NCBI GenBank assembly: GCA_964396165.1
Contig: CAYNEF010000009.1
Location: 52,354-84,353, forward strand
Origin: an uncultured Pseudobdellovibrionaceae bacterium
GTDB lineage: Bacteria; Bdellovibrionota; FAC87; UBA2466
Length of the DNA: 32,000 nt
Reading direction: 5' to 3'
A program made the position numbers and the translations under genes. Position 1 is the stretch's first letter; the number at the start of each line of letters is the position of its first letter. Below, piece after piece: positions 3,406-32,000 of the stretch. The notes under the pieces are model-generated. The model saw nothing but the letters and a program-made list of their open reading frames with translations, was not told where the DNA came from and made no database searches.

Positions 3406-4056
3406 TTATTTTTTCCACTCACTCGAGAAAGCTGTTTTTCCTTCAGGAATTTGGGGATAGTTCTGCTTTGCTTTCTCGGCAAAAGGTTTAAGTTGGTTCG
3501 TTTGTTCTAAATGCTTCAGGAAATCAAAGGCCTGATCGCTCGGAAATCTGCTTTCTTGCGTATTCCCGCGATCGCGACGCGCGCGGTTCATATACAGCTC
3601 CGGATCTTTATGAAACTCCGGATCGGAAAATACTCGTTGCTCTAGGAAATCTAATATTTTTTCTCTGCCCTCTCTGGAAGGAGGGTAACGTAAATCGGGT
3701 GATTTAAAATAGGCCCGGGCAGTTTTTCTCAATTCGGGGCTTTTTGCTTCAGCTTCCTCGATGGCTTTTGCTTCTTCTGCGGCTTTGCGTTCTTCCGCTT
3801 CTTTAACTTCTCTTTCTTTACGTTCTTTCTCCTCTCTGAGTTCCTTTTCTCTGGATGTTTTTATTGTATCAAGAATGTATTCGCGTACTCCATCACTTAC
3901 CCTGGCAGCTTTAAGATCTGCATCCACAGCGGCTAGTATTTTTAACAGTTCAGGACAGGTCTCATCTGCGTAACTTCTTGGAGTATAAAGAGTAACAAAC
4001 ATTAAAAGGCTGCAGGTGATGAGTTGAAGAAGAAGACTAAAATTTTTCTTAATCAT
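3406..4056 (-). CDS. Hypothetical secreted protein with a charged coiled-coil middle
   Basis: 216 aa ORF with a signal-peptide-like N terminus (MIKKNFSLLLQLITCSLLMFVTLYTPRSYA) followed by a Glu/Lys/Ala-rich coiled-coil-like segment. Confidence 0.7.
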   Translation of the reverse strand: MIKKNFSLLLQLITCSLLMFVTLYTPRSYADETCPELLKILAAVDADLKAARVSDGVREYILDTIKTSREKELREEKERKEREVKEAEERKAAEEAKAIEEAEAKSPELRKTARAYFKSPDLRYPPSREGREKILDFLEQRVFSDPEFHKDPELYMNRARRDRGNTQESRFPSDQAFDFLKHLEQTNQLKPFAEKAKQNYPQIPEGKTAFSSEWKK

Positions 4057-4488: not shown

Positions 4489-6570
4489 ATGAGTGACGTC
4501 CTCGGTAACTCGATTACATACATTAAAGGAGTGGGCCCAAAGCTTGCTCAAGTGCTGCACAAAAAGGGAATCGACACGCTTGAGGATGCACTTTATTTTG
4601 TGCCGCGTCTTTATGAAGACAGAAGGCGCATTATCCCTATCGCTTCGCTTCAGCCCAATACTACAGCCACAATTTCTGGAAAAGTTGTCAGCGCAAAAGA
4701 AGTGGGATTTACGCGTTACCAGAAACGTTTTGAAGTAACGCTAGCTGATGCGACAGGACGTACCGTTCTTACCTGGTTTAGAGCGTATCCTAGTCTGAAA
4801 GAAGAGTTCAAAGTGGGAACTTCCTTTCTCGTGAATGGAGAAGTGAAGTTGTACCGCGGGCTTTCGCAGATCACCCATCCAGATTACGAAAAAATTGAAG
4901 AGTTTGTAGACGGAAAACCAAAGGCTTCGATTAATTTTGGGCGCATTGTTCCTGTTTATAGCGAGACCGAAGGCTTGCACCAGAAAACAATTCGCAAAAT
5001 CATGGGGGAAGTTGTCCGTACTTCCGTAAAAGAATTGCATGACGTCTTACCGGAAGAAATGCGTGCACGTCTGGAACTTCCCACACTCAGACAAAGTTTT
5101 GTGGATCTCCATTTTCCAAAAACATTGCCGGAAGAAGGGCTTCCGTTAGATGCCCTGAAAAGAATCATCTTTGAAGAGTTCTTCGTATTGCAACTTGGCT
5201 TAGGCTTAAGAAAAAGAGAAACGCAAAAGAAAACGGCGCCTGCGTTAGTAAATAAAAACGGTGCTTTGGAAAAGTATATTGCAGGCCTTCCTTTTTCTCT
5301 TACAGGAGATCAGAAAAAGGTAATCGAGCAGGTGAATCACGATATTGCTCGTCCGCTCATGATGACAAGACTTGTGCAAGGGGATGTGGGATCTGGAAAA
5401 ACAGCCGTGGCGTTTGCAGCTGTCTCTGTCACAGCAAGTTCTGGTTACCAAACTGCGATCATGGCACCCACGGAATTACTCGCCATTCAGCACGCAAAAA
5501 GTGCTGCGGCGTTATTGCCTGACTTAAAAGTTGCACTTCTTACGCATAGTACGGCTAAGGACAAAGAGCTTCACAAGACGATTCACTCAGGCGAAGTGAG
5601 TTTGGTGATTGGAACGCATGCTCTCTTTCAAGAAAACGTAAAGTTTAAAAAATTGGGTCTTGTGATTGTGGATGAACAGCACCGCTTTGGGGTAGAGCAA
5701 CGCGCGGATTTACTTAAAAAGAGCGAGAAAGAAAATGCGCATCTTTTAATGATGACGGCCACTCCGATACCGAGAACTCTTGCGCTGACACTCTATGGAG
5801 ATTTGGACTTAAGTATCATCCGGGAAAAACCGCAAAACCGCAAAAAAGTGAATACGACGATTTTAAAAGATCGGGACTTGCCACGCGTTTATCAAAAGAT
5901 CAACGAGACTGTCGCAAGGGGCGAACAGGTTTATATAATTTATCCTTTGATTGAGGCGTCTGAAAAATTGGAATTAAAATCAGCGACTGAGATGTACGAG
6001 AAGCTTCGAAAAGAAATATTTCCTACGCTGAAACTTGCTTTGTTGCACGGTAGGATGAAGGGACAGGAAAAAGAAGACATCTTAAAGGCATTTAAGAACC
6101 GCGAATTTGATATTTTAGTTTCTACTACGGTAATTGAAGTAGGGATCGATGTTCCCAATTCGACGTTAATGGTGATTGAACACCCTGAACGTCTGGGGTT
6201 ATCGCAGTTGCACCAGTTAAGAGGACGGGTGGGTCGTGGAGACAAGCAAAGTACGTGTTTACTTGTGGTGGATAAATTCGTTTTACCTCGTTTAAGAGTA
6301 ATGGAAACATCGGATGATGGCTTTGTGATCGCGGAAGAAGATTTAAAATTCCGTGGGCCAGGAGAGTTTTTGGGTACAAGACAAAGCGGTCTTCCTGGTT
6401 TCAGGGTAGGGCATATCTTAAGGGATGCATCCTTATTGGAACTAGCGCGAAGTGAAGCGGAAGCAATTCTTTTGAAAGATCCCACACTGGATTTAAAAGA
6501 AAATTCCGGCATTCGTAAAATGGTAGAAACCCGCTGGAAACAAAAAATTGAGAGACTTAGAGGAGGGTAA
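4489..6570 (+). CDS. recG: ATP-dependent DNA helicase RecG
   Basis: ORF 4450..6570; the ATG at 4489 gives MSDVLGNSITYIKGVGPKLAQVL. Motifs include RLVQGDVGSGKTAVAF, VIVDEQHRFGVEQR, MTATPIPRTLALTLYGDLD, HPERLGLSQLHQLRGRVGRG and RGPGEFLGTRQSGLPGFR. Confidence 0.96.
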   Translation: MSDVLGNSITYIKGVGPKLAQVLHKKGIDTLEDALYFVPRLYEDRRRIIPIASLQPNTTATISGKVVSAKEVGFTRYQKRFEVTLADATGRTVLTWFRAYPSLKEEFKVGTSFLVNGEVKLYRGLSQITHPDYEKIEEFVDGKPKASINFGRIVPVYSETEGLHQKTIRKIMGEVVRTSVKELHDVLPEEMRARLELPTLRQSFVDLHFPKTLPEEGLPLDALKRIIFEEFFVLQLGLGLRKRETQKKTAPALVNKNGALEKYIAGLPFSLTGDQKKVIEQVNHDIARPLMMTRLVQGDVGSGKTAVAFAAVSVTASSGYQTAIMAPTELLAIQHAKSAAALLPDLKVALLTHSTAKDKELHKTIHSGEVSLVIGTHALFQENVKFKKLGLVIVDEQHRFGVEQRADLLKKSEKENAHLLMMTATPIPRTLALTLYGDLDLSIIREKPQNRKKVNTTILKDRDLPRVYQKINETVARGEQVYIIYPLIEASEKLELKSATEMYEKLRKEIFPTLKLALLHGRMKGQEKEDILKAFKNREFDILVSTTVIEVGIDVPNSTLMVIEHPERLGLSQLHQLRGRVGRGDKQSTCLLVVDKFVLPRLRVMETSDDGFVIAEEDLKFRGPGEFLGTRQSGLPGFRVGHILRDASLLELARSEAEAILLKDPTLDLKENSGIRKMVETRWKQKIERLRGG

Positions 6571-6657
6571 TTAATTAGCATATTGTGGAAGAGGGGGTAA
6601 GCGCTCCAACCCCGAAGTCGCGTTACCCCCTCTTCCACAATATGCTAATTAATTACC
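6566..6657. repeat. Perfect 35-bp inverted repeat with 22-nt loop (long hairpin 'A')
   Basis: Left arm 6566-6600 is GGTAATTAATTAGCATATTGTGGAAGAGGGGGTAA. Loop 6601-6622 is GCGCTCCAACCCCGAAGTCGCG. Right arm 6623-6657 is the exact reverse complement. It overlaps the recG stop codon and has no following T-tract. Confidence 0.98.
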
Positions 6658-6690
6658 GACAATCTAAGTATTGGGTTATTTGAGGAGTGG

Positions 6691-11194: not shown

Positions 11195-11268
11195 ACGGGT
11201 GGCACATGCATTTCTAGTGATGGCGCGCCAAGAGCGACAGCACTAGAAATGCGTGTGACAGGACCCGT
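11195..11268 (+). ncRNA. Structured element 1, family 1 (RNA or DNA level unknown)
   Basis: ACGGGT | GG | CACATGCATTTCTAGTG | ATGGCGCGCCAAGAGCGACAG | CACTAGAAATGCGTGTG | ACAGG | ACCCGT. It has a 6-bp outer stem, an asymmetric GG/ACAGG internal loop, a 17-bp inner stem (one G.U) and a 21-nt loop. Confidence 0.6.
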
Positions 11269-11384: not shown

Positions 11385-13325
11385 ATGTCCTTGTCACACG
11401 ACGTACATTCCAGACATACATTAGTGGTCTTTAAACAGACACCAGACTTGAAAAAAGTCGAAATCTCGCACGACTGGAATACAGCTGTCATTCAATCTCA
11501 CGATCAACTCCTTGCTTGCGTAGATCGCGCATACAAAAACGCACAAAGAATCGTCGTAATCGTATCCGAACTGGATTACGAAAAAACCCGCGTACTACTT
11601 AACTTAAGAATGCAGCGGGAAAACTCTGTTGCCTACGGCCTTCTTGTCGTCGCAAAAGATCCTACTAAATTCATGGAAAAAGAAGGCGGCCCCGCCGAGC
11701 TTCTCGATGCAGTAGGGGATAAAGAAGCCAGAAAAAATATTCAGATATCCCTTCTACGTGCCGTGCGATTTCTTTCACTTTCTGAATCAAAAGGAATGCA
11801 AAAAATCGGACAACGCACACTGGAGAGAATGAACGAAATATTTATCGATCTCTCTGCCGAAAGAAACTCAGAAAAACTACTCGGAAAAATTTTAACGAAA
11901 ACGATGGAAGTCACCAATGCGAAATCCGGTGCGCTTTTCATGGTGCAGGAAACAGATGGCGAAATGTATTTCCGCCTGAAAATCACAGCAGAACAAACTA
12001 AAGAACCTGTCTTTCAAAACACAACGTTAAGAGTTGTAGAAAACAGTGTATGTGGTTATGTCGCGTTGACAGGAAAAATCCATAATATTTCCGACATCAG
12101 CAATATGCGGGCAGGTTCCATCCCACAAATGCACCGTCAGTATGATTATGATTACAACGGCACAGCTGTTTGCATGGTTACGGTTCCCTTAAAAAATAGC
12201 AGACACGAAGTAATCGGCGTGTTGCAACTTGTAAATAAAAAAGACGAACGAGATGTTTCTGGAAATGGAATATGCCCATTCGAGGGAGAAGACGAAAGTA
12301 TTTTGATGTCTTTCGGAACACAAGCTGCCATCTGTTTGGAAAATGTGGATTTGTATGCGGACATCCAAAGACTGTTCGAAGGTTTTGTGAGAGCTTCCAT
12401 TACGGCCATCGAATCCAGAGATCCCAGCACGGGTGGTCACTCAGAACGTGTCGCTAAAATGTCTGTAGCTCTAGCACGCGCAACCACAGAAGTGGATATC
12501 GGCATTTACCGCTCTGTAAAATTTAAAGAAGAAGAAGTTCGAGAGCTCGAATACGCAGCGATGTTGCATGATTTCGGAAAAATCGGTGTACGTGAAGAAG
12601 TTCTCGTGAAAGCAAAAAAACTCTACGCCCACCAGCTCGAAGGAATTCAAGAGCGTATTAAAATTTGTAAAGCGGCTGCGAAAATCAATTATCTCGAAAA
12701 AAGATTGAGACAATCGGGAAATGATTTGGATTTAGAAAAAGACTACTTAAATAGAGTTGCTCAGATTGAAGGATATAAAGATATTATCTTGCAGGCAAAT
12801 GAACCAACTATCCTCATGAATGAAAATATTCAGGTTCTGGATAAGATAAGATCTGAGCAATTGCTGCTGCCTGATGGATCTAATATCGCTCTTCTTACAG
12901 AAGAGGAATTTAAAGCTCTATCTGTAACTAAGGGCTCGTTGACTGAGAATGAACGTGTGGAAATCGAATCACATGTTCGACATACGTATCAATTCTTAAA
13001 AATGATTCCTTGGACTAAGGATTTTAAACACCTGACTGAAATTGCTTACTGCCATCATGAGAAGTTGGATGGCACCGGGTATCCACGCGGTTTAGTTGCG
13101 CATGAAATTCCTTTGCAGTCTAAGATCATGACTATTGCAGATATATTTGATGCTTTAACGGCATCTGATCGTTGGTACAAAGAAGCTGTACCTACTGAAC
13201 GTGCGATTGAGATTCTTTTTAAAGAAGTAGAAAAAGGTAAGATTGATCCTGTCCTCTTTGAGCTGTTCGTAGCTAAGAAAATATTTGAAATTGCCCAGCC
13301 GAAAACTCTTCACCAAGTCGCCTAA
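11385..13325 (+). CDS. GAF domain + HD-GYP domain protein (putative c-di-GMP phosphodiesterase)
   Basis: 646 aa. The GAF-like region is around aa 160-310 (...GYVALTGKIHNISD...VMSFGTQAAICLENVDLYADIQRLFE). HD-GYP motifs are ESRDPSTGGHSERVA, MLHDFGKIGVREEVL and YCHHEKLDGTGYPRG. The exact start codon is uncertain. Confidence 0.9.
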   Translation: MSLSHDVHSRHTLVVFKQTPDLKKVEISHDWNTAVIQSHDQLLACVDRAYKNAQRIVVIVSELDYEKTRVLLNLRMQRENSVAYGLLVVAKDPTKFMEKEGGPAELLDAVGDKEARKNIQISLLRAVRFLSLSESKGMQKIGQRTLERMNEIFIDLSAERNSEKLLGKILTKTMEVTNAKSGALFMVQETDGEMYFRLKITAEQTKEPVFQNTTLRVVENSVCGYVALTGKIHNISDISNMRAGSIPQMHRQYDYDYNGTAVCMVTVPLKNSRHEVIGVLQLVNKKDERDVSGNGICPFEGEDESILMSFGTQAAICLENVDLYADIQRLFEGFVRASITAIESRDPSTGGHSERVAKMSVALARATTEVDIGIYRSVKFKEEEVRELEYAAMLHDFGKIGVREEVLVKAKKLYAHQLEGIQERIKICKAAAKINYLEKRLRQSGNDLDLEKDYLNRVAQIEGYKDIILQANEPTILMNENIQVLDKIRSEQLLLPDGSNIALLTEEEFKALSVTKGSLTENERVEIESHVRHTYQFLKMIPWTKDFKHLTEIAYCHHEKLDGTGYPRGLVAHEIPLQSKIMTIADIFDALTASDRWYKEAVPTERAIEILFKEVEKGKIDPVLFELFVAKKIFEIAQPKTLHQVA

Positions 13326-13359
13326 AAATAATTTTTAAGGATGAGATTTTAAGATGAAC

Positions 13360-13433
13360 ACGGGTCCTGTCACCTGCGAATGGGATGCTGTCGCTCTTGG
13401 CGCGCCATCACCCCATCCACAGGCGCCACCCGT
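13360..13433 (-). ncRNA. Structured element 2, family 1, inverted relative to element 1
   Basis: The reverse complement reads ACGGGT | GG | CGCCTGTGGATGGGGTG | ATGGCGCGCCAAGAGCGACAG | CATCCCATTCGCAGGTG | ACAGG | ACCCGT. It has the same architecture and length (74 nt) as element 1, and all 17 inner pairs form (4 G.U). Confidence 0.6.
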
Positions 13434-13545
13434 TCCCCGTTTTTTTCAATCCATAGTTCTAACGGAAAAAAAACAGTTCTATAAAGTCAGCGGAATGTAG
13501 CAGAGTGGTTCTATTAAACTGATTTATAAAATTTGTAAGTGAGAT

Positions 13546-13723
13546 CCTTTCAGGAAGAGGAGTGTGGGTGGCGCCTTCGTTAAAACCAGTGGCCCCGGGT
13601 AGTGATAAGCAAACTAGCAATGAAAACGAAACTTGCAGAAAGATCTCACAGCGAAGATCCAGTCCAAGGGGAGCATCTGGTTACCACGCAGGTGACAGGA
13701 CCCGCACTCCTCTTCCTGAAAGG
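13546..13723 (+). ncRNA. Structured element 3, enlarged relative of elements 1 and 2
   Basis: Outer arms are CCTTTCAGGAAGAGGAGTGTGGGT (13546-13569) and ACCCGCACTCCTCTTCCTGAAAGG (13700-13723): 24 bp, 23 Watson-Crick plus 1 G.U. The same GG (13570-13571)/ACAGG (13695-13699) internal loop follows, then a mostly paired inner stem (13572-13589 with 13677-13694, 14 of 18 paired). Confidence 0.55.
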
Positions 13724-14014
13724 TTTGCAATAATCAATACCCTATACAATTTTTTTCTCACACAAGTACTCTACGCAATGAGCAATCAAGTACTTAAAAT
13801 ATTCCCAAGCACACCTGGCATTTTTTTCCCGCACGAGAGGGAAATTCTTGCCGATCTTTCTGTCAATACATTGACAAGATTTAGGAACAATCATACAATT
13901 AAAGAGTAATATCCTTCTGTAAAAAATTAATTCCATAAAAAAAGTAGAATAGAAAAAAGCCACAAAGAGTAAGTTATTCCTTACTGTATTGTGAGTTTGT
14001 GTTTAAGGAGCCGA

Positions 14015-22724: not shown

Positions 22725-23027
22725 ATGAAAATTGATTCCATAGATTTACTCCAAAAGATAAATCCCAGTCCTACGATGGACGGTGCGGATAAACAGGTTA
22801 GTGGAGGTGAAAGTTTTTCCTCTTATCTGGGCAGATCCATTAACGACGTAAATGATTTGTTAAAGGCGTCTGATTCTGTCACCAATGATTTGGCAACGGG
22901 AAAAGTAGAAAATTTACATGATGCGATGATCGGTTTTGAAAAAGCCGAAACAGCTTTTAAGCTCCTCGTGCAAGTAAGAAATAAAGCACTAGAGGCTTAC
23001 CACGAAGTCATGCGTATGCAAGTGTGA
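22725..23027 (+). CDS. fliE: Flagellar hook-basal body protein FliE
   Basis: SFSSYLGRSINDVNDLLKASDSVTNDLATGKVENLHDAMIGFEKAETAFKLLVQVRNKALEAYHEVMRMQV. Confidence 0.93.
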   Translation: MKIDSIDLLQKINPSPTMDGADKQVSGGESFSSYLGRSINDVNDLLKASDSVTNDLATGKVENLHDAMIGFEKAETAFKLLVQVRNKALEAYHEVMRMQV

Positions 23028-23101
23028 TAACACATAAATAACTTCTGAATAAAATCGGTTAAACAAGAACAACAAATAATTGCGATTAAGAATTTAATAG
23101 C

Positions 23102-23192
23102 AATTAAAAGGTGGGGATTCCAGGCGGAGTAGTTAATGCGACTGGGGTTCGGAGCACTTAACTACTCCGCCTGGAATCTCCGCCTTTTAATT
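23102..23192 (+). repeat. Near-perfect 35-bp inverted repeat with 21-nt loop (long hairpin 'B')
   Basis: Left arm 23102-23136 is AATTAAAAGGTGGGGATTCCAGGCGGAGTAGTTAA. Loop 23137-23157 is TGCGACTGGGGTTCGGAGCAC. Right arm 23158-23192 is TTAACTACTCCGCCTGGAATCTCCGCCTTTTAATT. There are 33 Watson-Crick and 2 G.U pairs on the + strand. Confidence 0.97.
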
Positions 23193-23221
23193 CTCAATAT
23201 TAACTCGAAAGGGTTTTGACT

Positions 23222-24985
23222 ATGAATGACAAGTTAAGCCAGTACTGGCGAGATCTTAAAGATTATCTCGCTAAGTTTTCCTATAGGAAGAAAGTCCTTA
23301 TGGGATCCTTGGCTGGTCTTGTCGTGGTTGCGGGTATCGCACTCGTCGTAGCCTTGCAACACGATCCCCAACAAGTCCTTTATTCGGGTTTACAAAACGA
23401 AGATGCTAAAGCAGTAGCAAAAAAACTAGGCGAATTAAATATTCCCTACACGATTACCGAAGATCACTCCACCATTTCTGTTCCTGCGAGCCAAGTACAC
23501 CGTTCCCGTATGGAATTGGCTAAAGACGGATTGCCAGGTCAGGATGTAGTGGGGTTTGAAAAATTCGATGGCTCTACTCTAGGGATGTCGAGCTATGTGC
23601 AACGCATTCAGTACGTCCGCGCCGTACAAGGGGAATTAACTAGAAGTATTCAGCGTATCAGTGCAGTTAAAACAGCCCGAGTACACATCAGCGTACCACC
23701 TAAGAAAAATTTCATGGAAGAAGAAGATCCGCCAAAGGCTTCTGTGATATTGGAACTGAAACCCGGACAAACATTGGCAAAATCAGAGACAACCGGGATC
23801 GCGCATTTGGTTGCAAGTGCAGTAGAAGGATTAAAAGTAAATCAGATTACGATTGTCGATACCAAAGGAAATTTTTTACACCGTCCTGAAGACGGTTCGT
23901 CTCAAGCGGCATTAACAGGAGCTCTTCTAGAGCAACAACGCGGGCTGGAAAAAGAGTACGAAAGAAGCATTGAAGATATATTGTCTCCGGTTGTAGGTTT
24001 TGGAAAAGTACGCGCTAAAGTAACCGTAGAAATAGATCCCTCCAGAAGCAATACCACGGAAGAAACATTTGAAGGAGACAAAGCTGTTCCCAGAAGCGTT
24101 GTGAAGAACGACGAACAGGTTGTCGGCCAAAGACCCAATCCTATCGGAATTCCTGGTAGCAGGTCTAATTTGCCGGGTACGGAAGTCAATAATCCCGGCA
24201 TACCGATGGCTACTAACAATAGTGAAAAGAATACCAGTACGACTAATTTCGCTATCCCCAGAAAAGTACAAGTCACAGACAAACCGTCCGGCAGTATCAA
24301 GCGTTTAACTGTTGCTGTAGTGGTTGATGGACATTATGCCAAAGCACAAGGCGCAGATAAAGAAACGTTTACTCCACGTAGCGAAGAAGAATTAAAACGA
24401 TTGCAGGACTTAGTAGCAAATGCAGTTGGTTACGATACCCAGAGACGTGACAGTATTACTGTCAGCTCATTGCCCTTCCAGATACCAGAAGTCATACCTG
24501 AAGAAGAAGTTCCAAAAAGTCCGTGGGATCTCAAAGAACTCCAGAAACACGGCGTAAGAAATGGATTTATCGCAATCACTATTCTTCTCTTCTTCTTCCT
24601 TGTCTTGCGTCCATTCTTGAAATGGCTCACGCAGACAGAAATCAGAAAAACAGTTAGCGTTGTACCCGATGCTCTTCCACGCAAAGTAACTGAAGTGGAA
24701 CAATTGGTACAGGCTGAAAAAATAGCGGACAAGATGGAGTCCGAAAGAAAGATAAGCGAGCTCACGAAAGCACATGAGCAAGCACAGAGTGAACTTATGG
24801 CATTAACCAAAGCAAATGAAGAGGCACTGCTTTCTGAAAATCCGGAAAAAGTAGAAGGCGAAAAACTGAAGAATAAGATTATTGAGCTCATCAATAATTC
24901 ACCCAAAAAGGGTTTCCGGGTCATTCAAGATTGGCTGGATCAAGAAGACACCGTGCCACTACCTCAAACAGGAGAGGGTTCGTAA
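23222..24985 (+). CDS. fliF: Flagellar M-ring protein FliF
   Basis: FSYRKKVLMGSLAGLVVVAGIALVVAL, the PGLPGTEVNNPGI-like linker, SIKRLTVAVVVDG and a C-terminal GFRVIQDWLDQ (FliG-binding). Start chosen at the ATG at 23222; the track gives 23216. Confidence 0.95.
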   Translation: MNDKLSQYWRDLKDYLAKFSYRKKVLMGSLAGLVVVAGIALVVALQHDPQQVLYSGLQNEDAKAVAKKLGELNIPYTITEDHSTISVPASQVHRSRMELAKDGLPGQDVVGFEKFDGSTLGMSSYVQRIQYVRAVQGELTRSIQRISAVKTARVHISVPPKKNFMEEEDPPKASVILELKPGQTLAKSETTGIAHLVASAVEGLKVNQITIVDTKGNFLHRPEDGSSQAALTGALLEQQRGLEKEYERSIEDILSPVVGFGKVRAKVTVEIDPSRSNTTEETFEGDKAVPRSVVKNDEQVVGQRPNPIGIPGSRSNLPGTEVNNPGIPMATNNSEKNTSTTNFAIPRKVQVTDKPSGSIKRLTVAVVVDGHYAKAQGADKETFTPRSEEELKRLQDLVANAVGYDTQRRDSITVSSLPFQIPEVIPEEEVPKSPWDLKELQKHGVRNGFIAITILLFFFLVLRPFLKWLTQTEIRKTVSVVPDALPRKVTEVEQLVQAEKIADKMESERKISELTKAHEQAQSELMALTKANEEALLSENPEKVEGEKLKNKIIELINNSPKKGFRVIQDWLDQEDTVPLPQTGEGS

Positions 24986-31764: not shown

Positions 31765-31907
31765 GTAAAAACAATTTGTAATTACTAGTTTGATCTGAAG
31801 CTGACACTTCAGATTACGTCAATTAACCCCAAAGCTGGCCCGTGGAAAACGGAGGCTTTGGTTTTCAGGACTTTATTTCGCGTAGAGTCCGAACCAAGGA
31901 GAAAAAC

Positions 31908-32000
31908 ATGGGTGTAGTCTCGTCAATGGCAACGTCTATTTCTGGCCTGGAAACAAACGGCCAGGCATTAGCCGTAATCTCAGATAACATCGTAAACGCA
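31908..32000 (+). CDS. flgE: Flagellar hook protein FlgE, 5' end only
   Basis: The ATG at 31908 is preceded by AAGGAG. The translation MGVVSSMATSISGLETNGQALAVISDNIVNA is a rod/hook-family N terminus running off the window, after flgD. Confidence 0.85.
   Translation, partial: MGVVSSMATSISGLETNGQALAVISDNIVNA

What the first reader, a model, noticed from the sequence alone, without database searches (positions are those of the whole stretch)
23102..23192. Second 35-bp hairpin with a different stem but a related apical loop, inside the flagellar operon
Hairpin B (fliE-fliF gap) has an unrelated stem, but its loop TGCGACTGGGGTTCGGAGCAC aligns with the reverse complement of hairpin A's loop CGCGACTTCGGGGTTGGAGCGC. 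The shared blocks are GCGACT, GGGGTT and GGAGC (18 identities over the gapped alignment). The ends of the loop can form a 3-bp cap: CGC/GCG in A (reverse complement) and TGC/GCA in B, a compensatory C:G to T:A change, each followed by an unpaired C. Equal 35-bp arms, ~21-nt loops and conserved loop sequence with freely variable stems point to a dispersed hairpin family whose identity lies in the loop. In B the two imperfect stem pairs are G.U on the + strand.
Basis: partly seen in the sequence, partly recalled or inferred. Interest (0 to 1): 0.85.

Follow-up and report, generated by a model that had tools for sequence, protein, structure and literature searches.

The report
Loop-defined palindromic insertion hairpins
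The hairpin between fliE and fliF and its partner after recG are real copies of an undescribed family of small palindromic DNA insertions, found in three bacterial phyla, whose only conserved part is the tip of the hairpin.

Summary
Hairpin B (23102-23192; 35-nt arms, 33/35 paired, 21-nt loop) and hairpin A (6566-6657; 35/35 paired, 22-nt loop) are the two strongest inverted repeats in the window. Their loops match in opposite orientation at 18 positions (about 3 in 100,000 shuffles do as well).

Both are lineage-specific insertions. Relatives have a 50-56 nt fliE-fliF gap without B, and a recG/SDR junction (TAATG) without A.

The same tip, GCGAC-N1-3-GGGGTT-N0-1-GGAGC, sits at the centre of 21-29-bp hairpins with other stems. 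These occur in a Myxococcota MAG and a Gammaproteobacteria MAG, next to unrelated housekeeping genes, in both orientations.

Nothing matches in Rfam. REP, REPIN, MITE, attC and terminator criteria are not met.

In the gammaproteobacterial copy, the outer part of one arm is the pre-existing flank, present in relatives that lack the hairpin. The other arm is its new inverted copy. Hairpin A shows a weaker version of this at the recG end.

Best reading (about 0.45): a DNA-level, tip-defined palindromic element whose stems are perfected and extended by template switching. Rivals are a structured RNA and a conventional REPIN/MITE. The tip's function and what mobilises it are unknown. The source genome could not be scanned.

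The parts
23102..23136 (+). Hairpin B, 5' arm (35 nt). The 14 nt nearest the tip, GGCGGAGTAGTTAA, resemble A's GGAAGAGGGGGTAA.
23137..23157 (+). Hairpin B tip module, TGCGACTGGGGTTCGGAGCAC. It reads as a cap TGC/GCA, then G.A and A.G mismatches, a closing C:G, the loop TGGGGTTC and a bulged C. The GCGAC...GGAGC orientation is on the + strand, which is sense to fliE-fliF.
   Evidence: The tandem G.A reading is my inference from the sequence and the predicted 2x2 internal loop.
23158..23192 (+). Hairpin B, 3' arm (35 nt). It has two G.U pairs with the 5' arm on the + strand.
23094..23099 (+). TTAATA. Possible outer 6-bp extension of stem B, pairing with TATTAA at 23198-23203 across a 2x5 internal loop. 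This is weak, because the sequence is AT-rich.
   Evidence: reading of the sequence
23198..23203 (+). TATTAA, the partner of 23094-23099.
6566..6600 (+). Hairpin A, left arm (35 nt). Its first 5 nt, GGTAA, are the last codons and stop of recG (stop at 6568-6570).
6601..6622 (-). Hairpin A tip module. The - strand reads CGCGACTTCGGGGTTGGAGCGC, so the GCGAC...GGAGC orientation is antisense to recG and the SDR gene.
6623..6657 (+). Hairpin A, right arm (35 nt), perfectly complementary to the left arm.
6556..6561 (+). CTTAGA inside the recG coding end. It pairs with TCTAAG at 6663-6668 across a 4x5 internal loop. The right flank therefore carries a partial inverted copy of the ancestral recG 3' end.
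6658..6690 (+). 33-nt tail of the A insertion. It holds the mirrored TCTAAG and a new Shine-Dalgarno (GAGGAG) for the SDR gene, replacing the overlapping stop/start (TAATG) seen in relative L140.

Best explanation
A and B are two copies of a DNA-level, non-coding palindromic insertion family. The heritable, recognised part is the tip of the hairpin: GCGAC-N1-3-GGGGTT-N0-1-GGAGC. I read this as two G:C pairs, a tandem G.A/A.G, a closing C:G and an 8-9 nt G-rich loop. About 10-14 bp of adjoining stem is partly conserved within a lineage.

The element lands in intergenic spacers, in either orientation and without regard to neighbouring genes. The long outer stem is not faithfully inherited. I propose that replication template switching within the hairpin keeps it perfect and lengthens it, at least partly by copying the host flank in inverted orientation. 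The same process can invert the loop. This would explain perfect, similar-length but unrelated arms around a conserved centre.

Shown: a real family across three phyla, absence at orthologous sites, no known-family match, and one arm being pre-existing flank in one copy. Inferred: the template-switch mechanism, the tandem G.A geometry, and how the tip is propagated. Propagation could be by an unidentified trans-acting single-strand DNA enzyme of the HUH/RAYT kind, or by copy-choice between copies.
For: Family:
- Seven of 138 pattern matches in other genomes are centred in 21-29-bp inverted repeats with different stems. They lie in Myxococcota MAG SMAG_U16444 (L032, L097) and Gammaproteobacteria MAG SS_bin_65 (L060, L098, L139).
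- Reverse-oriented copies lie in tandem with them in L097 and L032.
- The loop A/B similarity has p of about 3e-5.

Insertion:
- B is absent from L002 and L003, where the fliE-fliF gap is 50-56 nt against about 190 nt in the window.
- A is absent from L140, where the recG stop overlaps the SDR start; the window has 120 extra nt.
- The L098 copy is absent from five relatives at 87-94% protein identity.
- 33 kb and 44 kb of relatives' DNA contain no such hairpin.

DNA level:
- Orientation relative to transcription is mixed: B is sense, while A and L098 are antisense.
- Neighbours are unrelated housekeeping genes: recG/SDR, fliE/fliF, SLC13 transporter/trp leader, argS, rsmH, ADH.

Stems from flank:
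- The distal right arm of L098, GCCGCAGGCCTTG|TGA, is collinear with GCCGCGGGGCCTG|TGA in hairpin-free relatives, at the same 11-nt spacing from a conserved CTTGAC. It matches 10/13 in the arm (p about 7e-4 to 2.5e-3), and related ends occur in L167 and L168.
- In A, the outer 5 bp of the left arm is the conserved recG end (R-G-G-stop in both lineages), and a further CTTAGA is mirrored on the right.

Literature:
- Template switching between inverted-repeat arms homogenises arms, inverts spacers and expands repeats (PMC8604942, PMC13100816), and can create perfect hairpins (PMC8794818).
Against: - Only two copies are known from the source genome, which could not be scanned.
- The relatives used as empty sites are only about 72-78% identical in DNA, so 'recent' is relative and the boundaries of B cannot be resolved. 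The L002 and L003 arm comparisons are not significant (p = 0.44 and 0.75; p = 0.14 for the L003 gap).
- For the whole L098 arm, the shuffle p is only 0.026, and the reverse-complement arm scores equally, because the flank contains small palindromes.
- In the Myxococcota MAG two copies share the same stems, so whole hairpins can also be inherited.
- The stem mismatches that are transitions fall mostly as G.U on the GCGAC...GGAGC strand. That fits selection on a folded single strand, which could be RNA.
- No mobilising gene was seen near any copy.
Confidence: 0.45

Rival explanations
1. This is a structured RNA element: a cis-acting mRNA element, or an independently transcribed small RNA or RNase III substrate. 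A conserved apical loop is bound by a protein or pairs with another RNA. The stems only need to pair and are kept so by selection.
For: - The GCGAC...GGAGC strand folds better than its complement in all nine copies, by 0.7-9.9 kcal/mol. Transition mismatches in stems are mostly G.U on that strand: 2 in B, and 1 each in L139, L060 and L097c.
- The cap above the stem changes compensatorily between A and B.
- B is sense within the flagellar operon.
- Loop-defined, stem-variable multi-hairpin RNAs exist, such as the cuckoo RNAs (PMC4615179).
- A second hairpin family in the same window looks RNA-like.
Against: - Orientation relative to the flanking genes is mixed: A and L098 are antisense, and tandem Myxococcota copies point both ways.
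- There is no conserved gene context.
- Copies are present or absent between relatives at all three loci examined.
- Perfect 35-bp duplexes are unusual for bacterial regulatory RNAs.
- There is no Rfam family and no convincing promoter or terminator.
- G.T wobbles are equally tolerated in single-stranded DNA hairpins, so the strand bias does not single out RNA.
Confidence: 0.25
2. This is a conventional non-autonomous transposable palindrome (REPIN-, PATE- or MITE-like). The whole hairpin is cut and pasted by a trans-encoded transposase. A and B belong to different subfamilies with many identical siblings elsewhere in the genome. The resemblance of stems to flanks is coincidence or target preference.
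For: - The copies are intergenic, insertion-polymorphic, present in both orientations and clustered in Myxococcota like BIME/REPIN clusters.
- Paralogous Myxococcota copies L032 and L097 share stems.
- REPINs are hairpins made of inverted arms plus a spacer, mobilised by RAYTs located elsewhere in the genome (PMC3116915).
Against: - The defining REP/REPIN features are not met. There is no GTAG or CGTC tag at the foot, the arms are not themselves palindromic REPs, and the stems are not conserved between copies while the spacer is.
- The termini are not conserved and there is no clear direct target duplication.
- No Y1/HUH or other transposase lies in the window or next to any copy.
- The L098 arm is collinear with pre-existing flank.
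Confidence: 0.2
3. These are two unrelated hairpins, such as terminators or random palindromes, whose loops resemble each other by chance.
For: Only two copies lie in 32 kb. Both are between co-directional genes, where hairpins are common.
Against: - The loop similarity has p of about 3e-5.
- The same motif is centred in long hairpins in two other phyla.
- Neither hairpin is listed as a terminator-like site.
- Both are absent from relatives.
Confidence: 0.02

Closest known systems
REP / REPIN elements mobilised by RAYT (TnpA-REP) HUH transposases
   Same: Small, non-coding, extragenic palindromes that form long hairpins in single-stranded DNA or RNA. They are insertion-polymorphic, occur in both orientations and in clusters, and need no adjacent transposase gene.
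   Different: In REPs and REPINs the arms, with a GTAG or CGTC tag at the foot, are the conserved and recognised part, and the spacer is the less conserved part (PMC3733652, PMC3116915, PMC8266576). Here it is the reverse. The arms are not REP-like palindromes themselves, and no RAYT was seen.
Template-switch (quasipalindrome) mutagenesis that homogenises, expands and inverts inverted repeats
   Same: It explains perfect arms, loop inversion and an arm that is an inverted copy of pre-existing flank (PMC8604942, PMC13100816, PMC8794818).
   Different: It is a generic mutational process. It does not explain a 19-30 nt tip conserved across three phyla, or repeated new insertions.
Cuckoo RNA family (alphaproteobacterial small RNAs with 2-4 hairpins, loop motif CCUCCUCCC, variable stems)
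   Same: Family identity lies in the loop while stems vary freely. Hairpins occur in tandem.
   Different: The motif is different and the stems there are short. Cuckoo RNAs are single-orientation transcribed genes with synteny. Here stems are 21-35 bp, orientation is mixed and copies are insertion-polymorphic (PMC4615179).
MITEs and mitochondrial mobile hairpin or GC-cluster elements
   Same: Tiny non-autonomous hairpin-forming insertions in intergenic DNA.
   Different: MITEs are defined by conserved terminal inverted repeats and direct target duplications. Neither is evident here.
Integron attC sites
   Same: Recombination sites recognised as folded single-stranded hairpins, with structure conserved more than sequence.
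   Different: In attC the conserved R/L boxes are at the base of the stem, with extrahelical bases, and the tip is variable. Here the tip is conserved, the stems are perfect, and there are no GTTRRRY boxes or integrase.

Membership tests
REP (GTAG/CGTC-tagged extragenic palindromes) | Conserved GTAG or CGTC tetranucleotide at one end (the foot) of the palindrome | tested here: not met
   The feet are AATTAAAA... (B) and GGTAATTA... (A). GTAG occurs only inside B's arm, 5 nt from the tip, and not at all in A. No arm contains CGTC or GACG (definition from PMC3733652).
REP (GTAG/CGTC-tagged extragenic palindromes) | Stem of 5-13 bp, with stem sequence conserved among copies in a genome | tested here: not met
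   The stems are 35 bp. A and B share the same pair at only 14 of 35 positions. Copy number in the whole genome is not testable.
REPIN | Two inverted REP units, each itself a small palindrome, plus a less-conserved spacer | tested here: not met
   The arms alone fold weakly or not at all (0 to -6.7 kcal/mol; both A arms 0.0). The spacer is the conserved part.
REPIN | Cognate RAYT (Y1 HUH) gene in the genome, usually flanked by REPINs | not testable with these tools
   None was found among the proteins searched against NCBIfam or Pfam in the window or beside other copies. The rest of the genomes could not be read.
MITE | Conserved terminal inverted repeats and a direct target-site duplication | tested here: not met
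   The ends of A and B are unrelated. The junctions show no clear direct repeat; AATT in B and TAATTAATTA in A are self-complementary and ambiguous.
Integron attC | R''/R' (RYYYAAC/GTTRRRY) boxes at the base, extrahelical bases, a variable tip and an adjacent cassette or integrase | tested here: not met
   There are no such boxes at the stem base, the stems are perfect and the tip is conserved. No integrase was found among the window proteins searched.
Intrinsic (Rho-independent) terminator | Short GC-rich stem, 3-8 nt loop, 3' T-run | tested here: not met
   The terminator scan does not list either hairpin. The loops are 21-22 nt.
Any Rfam RNA family | Match at or above the family gathering score | tested here: not met
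   There were 0 matches at gathering thresholds in the window. At E up to 10 (window) and up to 1 (L097), mostly far-below-threshold microRNA-precursor models match, as generic long hairpins, together with a few other sub-threshold families.
Retron msr-msd | Adjacent reverse transcriptase gene and a1/a2 repeats | tested here: not met
   The neighbours are recG, an SDR gene, fliE and fliF. No reverse transcriptase was found among the window proteins searched.
Spacer-like (immune memory) hairpin | Variable stem matches phage or foreign DNA | tested here: not met
   The arms give only chance-level hits in GenBank phages (E about 4) and no exact 20-mers in IMG/VR.

The most novel reading that the evidence does not exclude
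The true mobile unit is only the roughly 20-50-nt tip. After landing, it nucleates a hairpin and builds its own long stem by inverted copying of host flank: a self-assembling palindrome. It is spread across phyla by an as yet unknown enzyme that recognises the tandem-G.A/GGGGTT tip on single-stranded DNA. Such an element has no fixed ends. It would be a previously unrecognised way of generating long perfect hairpins, and new intergenic structure, in bacterial genomes.
Probability: 0.25. Interest if true: 0.85.

Novelty: new variant of a known kind. Interest (0 to 1): 0.62.

Why it matters
Bacterial extragenic palindromes such as REPs, REPINs and MITEs are defined by conserved arms or ends. Here the conserved part is the tip, and the arms differ from copy to copy, in at least one case being made from local DNA.

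If confirmed, this gives a concrete and testable case of how long perfect hairpins arise de novo next to genes. It also points to an unknown factor that recognises a tip shared across three phyla.

There are practical consequences too. These hairpins sit at stop codons and inside operons: one replaced a translationally coupled recG/SDR junction. They also appear to break short-read assemblies.

Tried and rejected
- **Rfam:** gathering and E-value modes on the window and on the Myxococcota cluster gave no family match; the sub-threshold hits were mostly generic microRNA-like models.
- **Viral contigs:** the loop pattern gave 16 chance hits, none flanked by inverted repeats. The Gammaproteobacteria-type and Myxococcota-type tips gave 0 hits.
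- **Plasmids:** BLAST with the tip gave only chance 18-19-mers inside genes.
- **Spacer-like stems:** the arms have no phage or viral matches and no other copy in any held sequence.
- **Metagenome scan:** the window-type tip plus 'NCT' gave 22 hits, all without stems.
- **Shared sequence outside the hairpins:** the flanks of A and B do not align convincingly.
- **B arm derived from flank:** comparisons with L002 and L003 are not significant.
- **Terminator or promoter explanation:** scans show nothing relevant.
- **REP-dimer reading:** the arms are not palindromic.
- **Mobilising gene next to copies:** only housekeeping genes were found.
- **Extending the source contig through exact-protein look-ups:** this failed.
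- **Formal pair-count on a common alignment:** not done, because internal-loop lengths put the stems of different lineages out of register. A direct A-against-B count was used instead.

Full report
**1. The observation**

The window comes from a Bdellovibrionota-like MAG. The FliF and RecG homologues are labelled Bdellovibrionales/Bdellovibrionota, Deltaproteobacteria or Proteobacteria MAGs, and GC is about 43%.

The inverted-repeat scan lists six pairs. The two best are:
- A: arms 6566-6600 and 6623-6657, 35 nt, 100% complementary, 22 nt between the arms.
- B: arms 23102-23136 and 23158-23192, 35 nt, 94% complementary, 21 nt between the arms (sequences).

B lies between fliE (22725-23027) and fliF (23216-24985). 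A starts inside the last two codons of recG (stop at 6568-6570) and precedes an SDR oxidoreductase gene.

The reverse complement of loop A, CGCGACTTCGGGGTTGGAGCGC, aligns with loop B, TGCGACTGGGGTTCGGAGCAC, at 18 positions. Only 6 of 200,000 composition-preserving shuffles, taking both orientations, do as well.

The predicted folds show:
- the 3-bp cap (CGC/GCG in A against TGC/GCA in B);
- a bulged C on the 3' side;
- a small internal loop formed by GA opposite AG, or by GA opposite a single A in some folds;
- a closing C:G and a G-rich loop.

Fold z-scores are -10 to -14. Both mismatches of B are G.U on the + strand.

One correction applies. Of 35 stem positions, 14 carry the same pair in A and B, 1 differs on one side and 20 differ on both sides. 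Similarity is concentrated next to the tip: in the 5' arm, 9 of the proximal 14 positions match, against 6 of the distal 21.

**2. Both hairpins are lineage-specific insertions**

- The same strain, in an independent Logan assembly (L001), has B unchanged.
- Relatives L002 (FliF 94% identical) and L003 (84%) have the same gene order but a 50-56 nt fliE-fliF gap with no hairpin. The window's gap is about 190 nt.
- Relative L140 (RecG 83%) has the recG stop overlapping the SDR start (TAATG). The window has 120 extra nucleotides there, consisting of the hairpin and a 33-nt tail that supplies a new Shine-Dalgarno.
- These relatives are only about 72-78% identical in DNA, so 'recent' means since species-level divergence.
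- L002 and L003, together 33 kb, contain no comparable hairpin.

**3. The tip motif recurs in other phyla**

The pattern GCGACT-N0-2-GGGGTT-N0-1-GGAGC gave 16 hits in IMG/VR, none with flanking complementarity.

Of 138 pattern matches, seven sit exactly at the centre of long inverted repeats:
- Two are in Myxococcota MAG SMAG_U16444 (L032, L097).
- Three are in Gammaproteobacteria MAG SS_bin_65 (L060, L098, L139).
- The other two are the window's own B and its Logan duplicate L001.
- The five from other genomes have stems of 21-26 bp, all different from A and B.

L097 carries three tandem hairpins at about 4950-5230. Two have the tip in reverse orientation (…GGCGACATGGGGTTGGAGCC… on the other strand), and one of those is degenerate. 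L032 carries a paralogous pair.

The alignment of nine copies gives the consensus GCGAC-N1-3-GGGGTT-N0-1-GGAGC. Within the Gammaproteobacteria MAG the stem next to the tip is also similar (GGG(G/C)AT..GT(C/G)), while the distal stem is unrelated. This is the same gradient as in A against B.

The neighbours are unrelated housekeeping genes: an SLC13 transporter and the trp leader/trpE, argS, rsmH, a zinc alcohol dehydrogenase, and a Band-7 protein. No transposase, reverse transcriptase or integrase was found among the proteins searched in the window or next to any copy.

**4. Comparison with what is known**

- Rfam has nothing at gathering thresholds. At permissive E-values the matches are mostly microRNA-precursor models, far below threshold, as expected for any long hairpin.
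- The terminator scan does not list either hairpin.
- REP criteria fail. Those are a GTAG or CGTC tag at the foot, 5-13-bp conserved stems, and for REPINs two inverted REP palindromes with a less conserved spacer (PMC3733652; PMC3116915; PMC8266576). Here there is no tag at the foot, the arms are not palindromic themselves, and the stems vary while the spacer is conserved.
- MITE criteria (conserved ends, direct target duplication) and attC criteria (conserved base, variable tip) are likewise not met.
- The arms have no phage or viral counterparts.
- The conceptually closest RNA family, the cuckoo RNAs, shares 'conserved loop, variable stem, tandem hairpins'. It differs in motif, stem length and biology.

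**5. Where the stems come from**

The gammaproteobacterial copy gave the clearest empty site. Five relatives (87-94% identical in the transporter) lack the hairpin.

Anchored on a conserved CTTGAC with identical 11-nt spacing, the distal right arm of L098 (GCCGCAGGCCTTG, then TGA) lines up without gaps with GCCGCGGGGCCTG, then TGA, in L164-L166. That is 10/13 within the arm, with a binomial p of about 7e-4 to 2.5e-3. L167 and L168 have related ends at the same place.

So part of one arm is pre-existing flank, and its perfect complement on the other side of the tip is new DNA. A caution applies: over the whole arm the shuffle p is only 0.026, and the opposite arm scores equally, because the flank contains small palindromes.

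In hairpin A the outer 5 bp of the left arm (GGTAA) are the conserved end of recG, which is R-G-G-stop in both lineages. Six further bases of recG (CTTAGA, 6556-6561) are mirrored as TCTAAG at 6663-6668. This is suggestive but weaker.

For B the boundaries cannot be resolved. The comparisons with L002 and L003 are not significant.

In the Myxococcota MAG the paralogous copies share stems, so whole hairpins can also be propagated.

**6. Strand of action**

The strand that reads GCGAC...GGAGC folds better than its complement in all nine copies, by 0.7-9.9 kcal/mol. The transition-type stem mismatches are mostly G.U (G.T) on that strand. Part of the difference comes from the shared tip, so the copies are not independent tests.

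This suggests that one strand is selected as a folded single strand. It does not distinguish RNA from single-stranded DNA.

Orientation relative to the flanking genes is mixed. B is sense. A and L098 are antisense. Tandem Myxococcota copies point both ways. That argues against a simple cis-acting mRNA element.

**7. Most likely mechanism**

I favour, at about 0.45, a DNA-level element defined by its tip. It inserts into intergenic DNA, and its long stem is perfected, lengthened and occasionally flipped by intra-hairpin template switching.

The literature documents these behaviours for inverted repeats:
- arm homogenisation and spacer inversion (PMC8604942);
- repeat expansion (PMC13100816);
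- creation and maintenance of perfect hairpins (PMC8794818).

This explains perfect but unrelated arms, the gradient of conservation away from the tip, both loop orientations, and the flank-derived arm in L098. It does not explain how the tip itself is moved, or why it is conserved across three phyla. An unidentified enzyme that recognises the tip on single-stranded DNA, or copy-choice between copies, are inferences only.

Rivals:
- a functional structured RNA (about 0.25);
- a conventional REPIN or MITE with several subfamilies (about 0.2);
- chance (about 0.02).

**8. Limits**

- The source genome outside the window was never searched.
- The genome-collection scan was truncated.
- The single metagenome scan used a pattern specific to the window-type tip and returned only chance hits.
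- All statements about copy number and dispersal in this genome therefore rest on two copies.

**9. Verdict**

This is a real, undescribed, loop-defined hairpin family present in at least three phyla. The two window copies are lineage-specific insertions. It is most like extragenic palindromic mobile repeats, but with the conserved and variable parts reversed, and with evidence that stems can be made from local sequence.

I rate it a new variant of a known kind, with interest 0.62.

Noticed in passing
window 11195-11268 (+) and 13360-13433 (sense on - strand): A second, different hairpin family forms an inverted pair flanking the GAF/HD-GYP gene (11385-13325). The outer stem (ACGGGU/ACCCGU) and the tip (GUGAUGGCGCGCCAAGAGCGACAGCAC) are essentially identical between the two copies. 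The 13-bp middle helix is completely different and compensatory. Copy 2 folds much better on one strand (-47.5 against -29.5 kcal/mol), which looks RNA-like. Copy 1 begins with a sigma-54-like TGGCAC. It has no match at Rfam gathering thresholds.
   Followed up: partly
window 13531-13569 / 13700-13738: A long imperfect inverted repeat (39-nt arms, 79% complementary, 130 nt apart) lies in the spacer after the HD-GYP gene. The region 13333-13769 has no counterpart in relative L002.
   Followed up: no
L141 (Logan contig of the same strain), end at 3571: The short-read contig carrying recG stops 30 nt into hairpin A. This suggests that these palindromes break assemblies, which may hide further copies in MAGs.
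   Followed up: no
L098 4487-4690 (- strand) and L164-L169 equivalents: Downstream of the Gammaproteobacteria hairpin lies a classical trp leader (peptide ...N-W-W-W-G...) with an attenuator terminator, ahead of trpE. The hairpin was inserted between the transporter stop and the putative trp promoter -35 box, CTTGAC.
   Followed up: partly
window 31893-32000 vs L002 18734-18841: A 108-nt stretch at the start of, and just upstream of, the flgE-like gene is 98% identical to L002, although the rest of the locus is about 75-78% identical.
   Followed up: no
L055 35-128 (Paenibacillus sp. 2TAB23): The loop pattern also occurs twice in a 75-nt tandem repeat with no flanking hairpin. This is a chance or unrelated match that looks like a coding repeat.
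   Followed up: no
window 6658-6690: The insertion of hairpin A converted a translationally coupled recG/SDR junction (TAATG in L140) into a 120-nt spacer with a new GAGGAG Shine-Dalgarno and a doubled ATG.
   Followed up: partly
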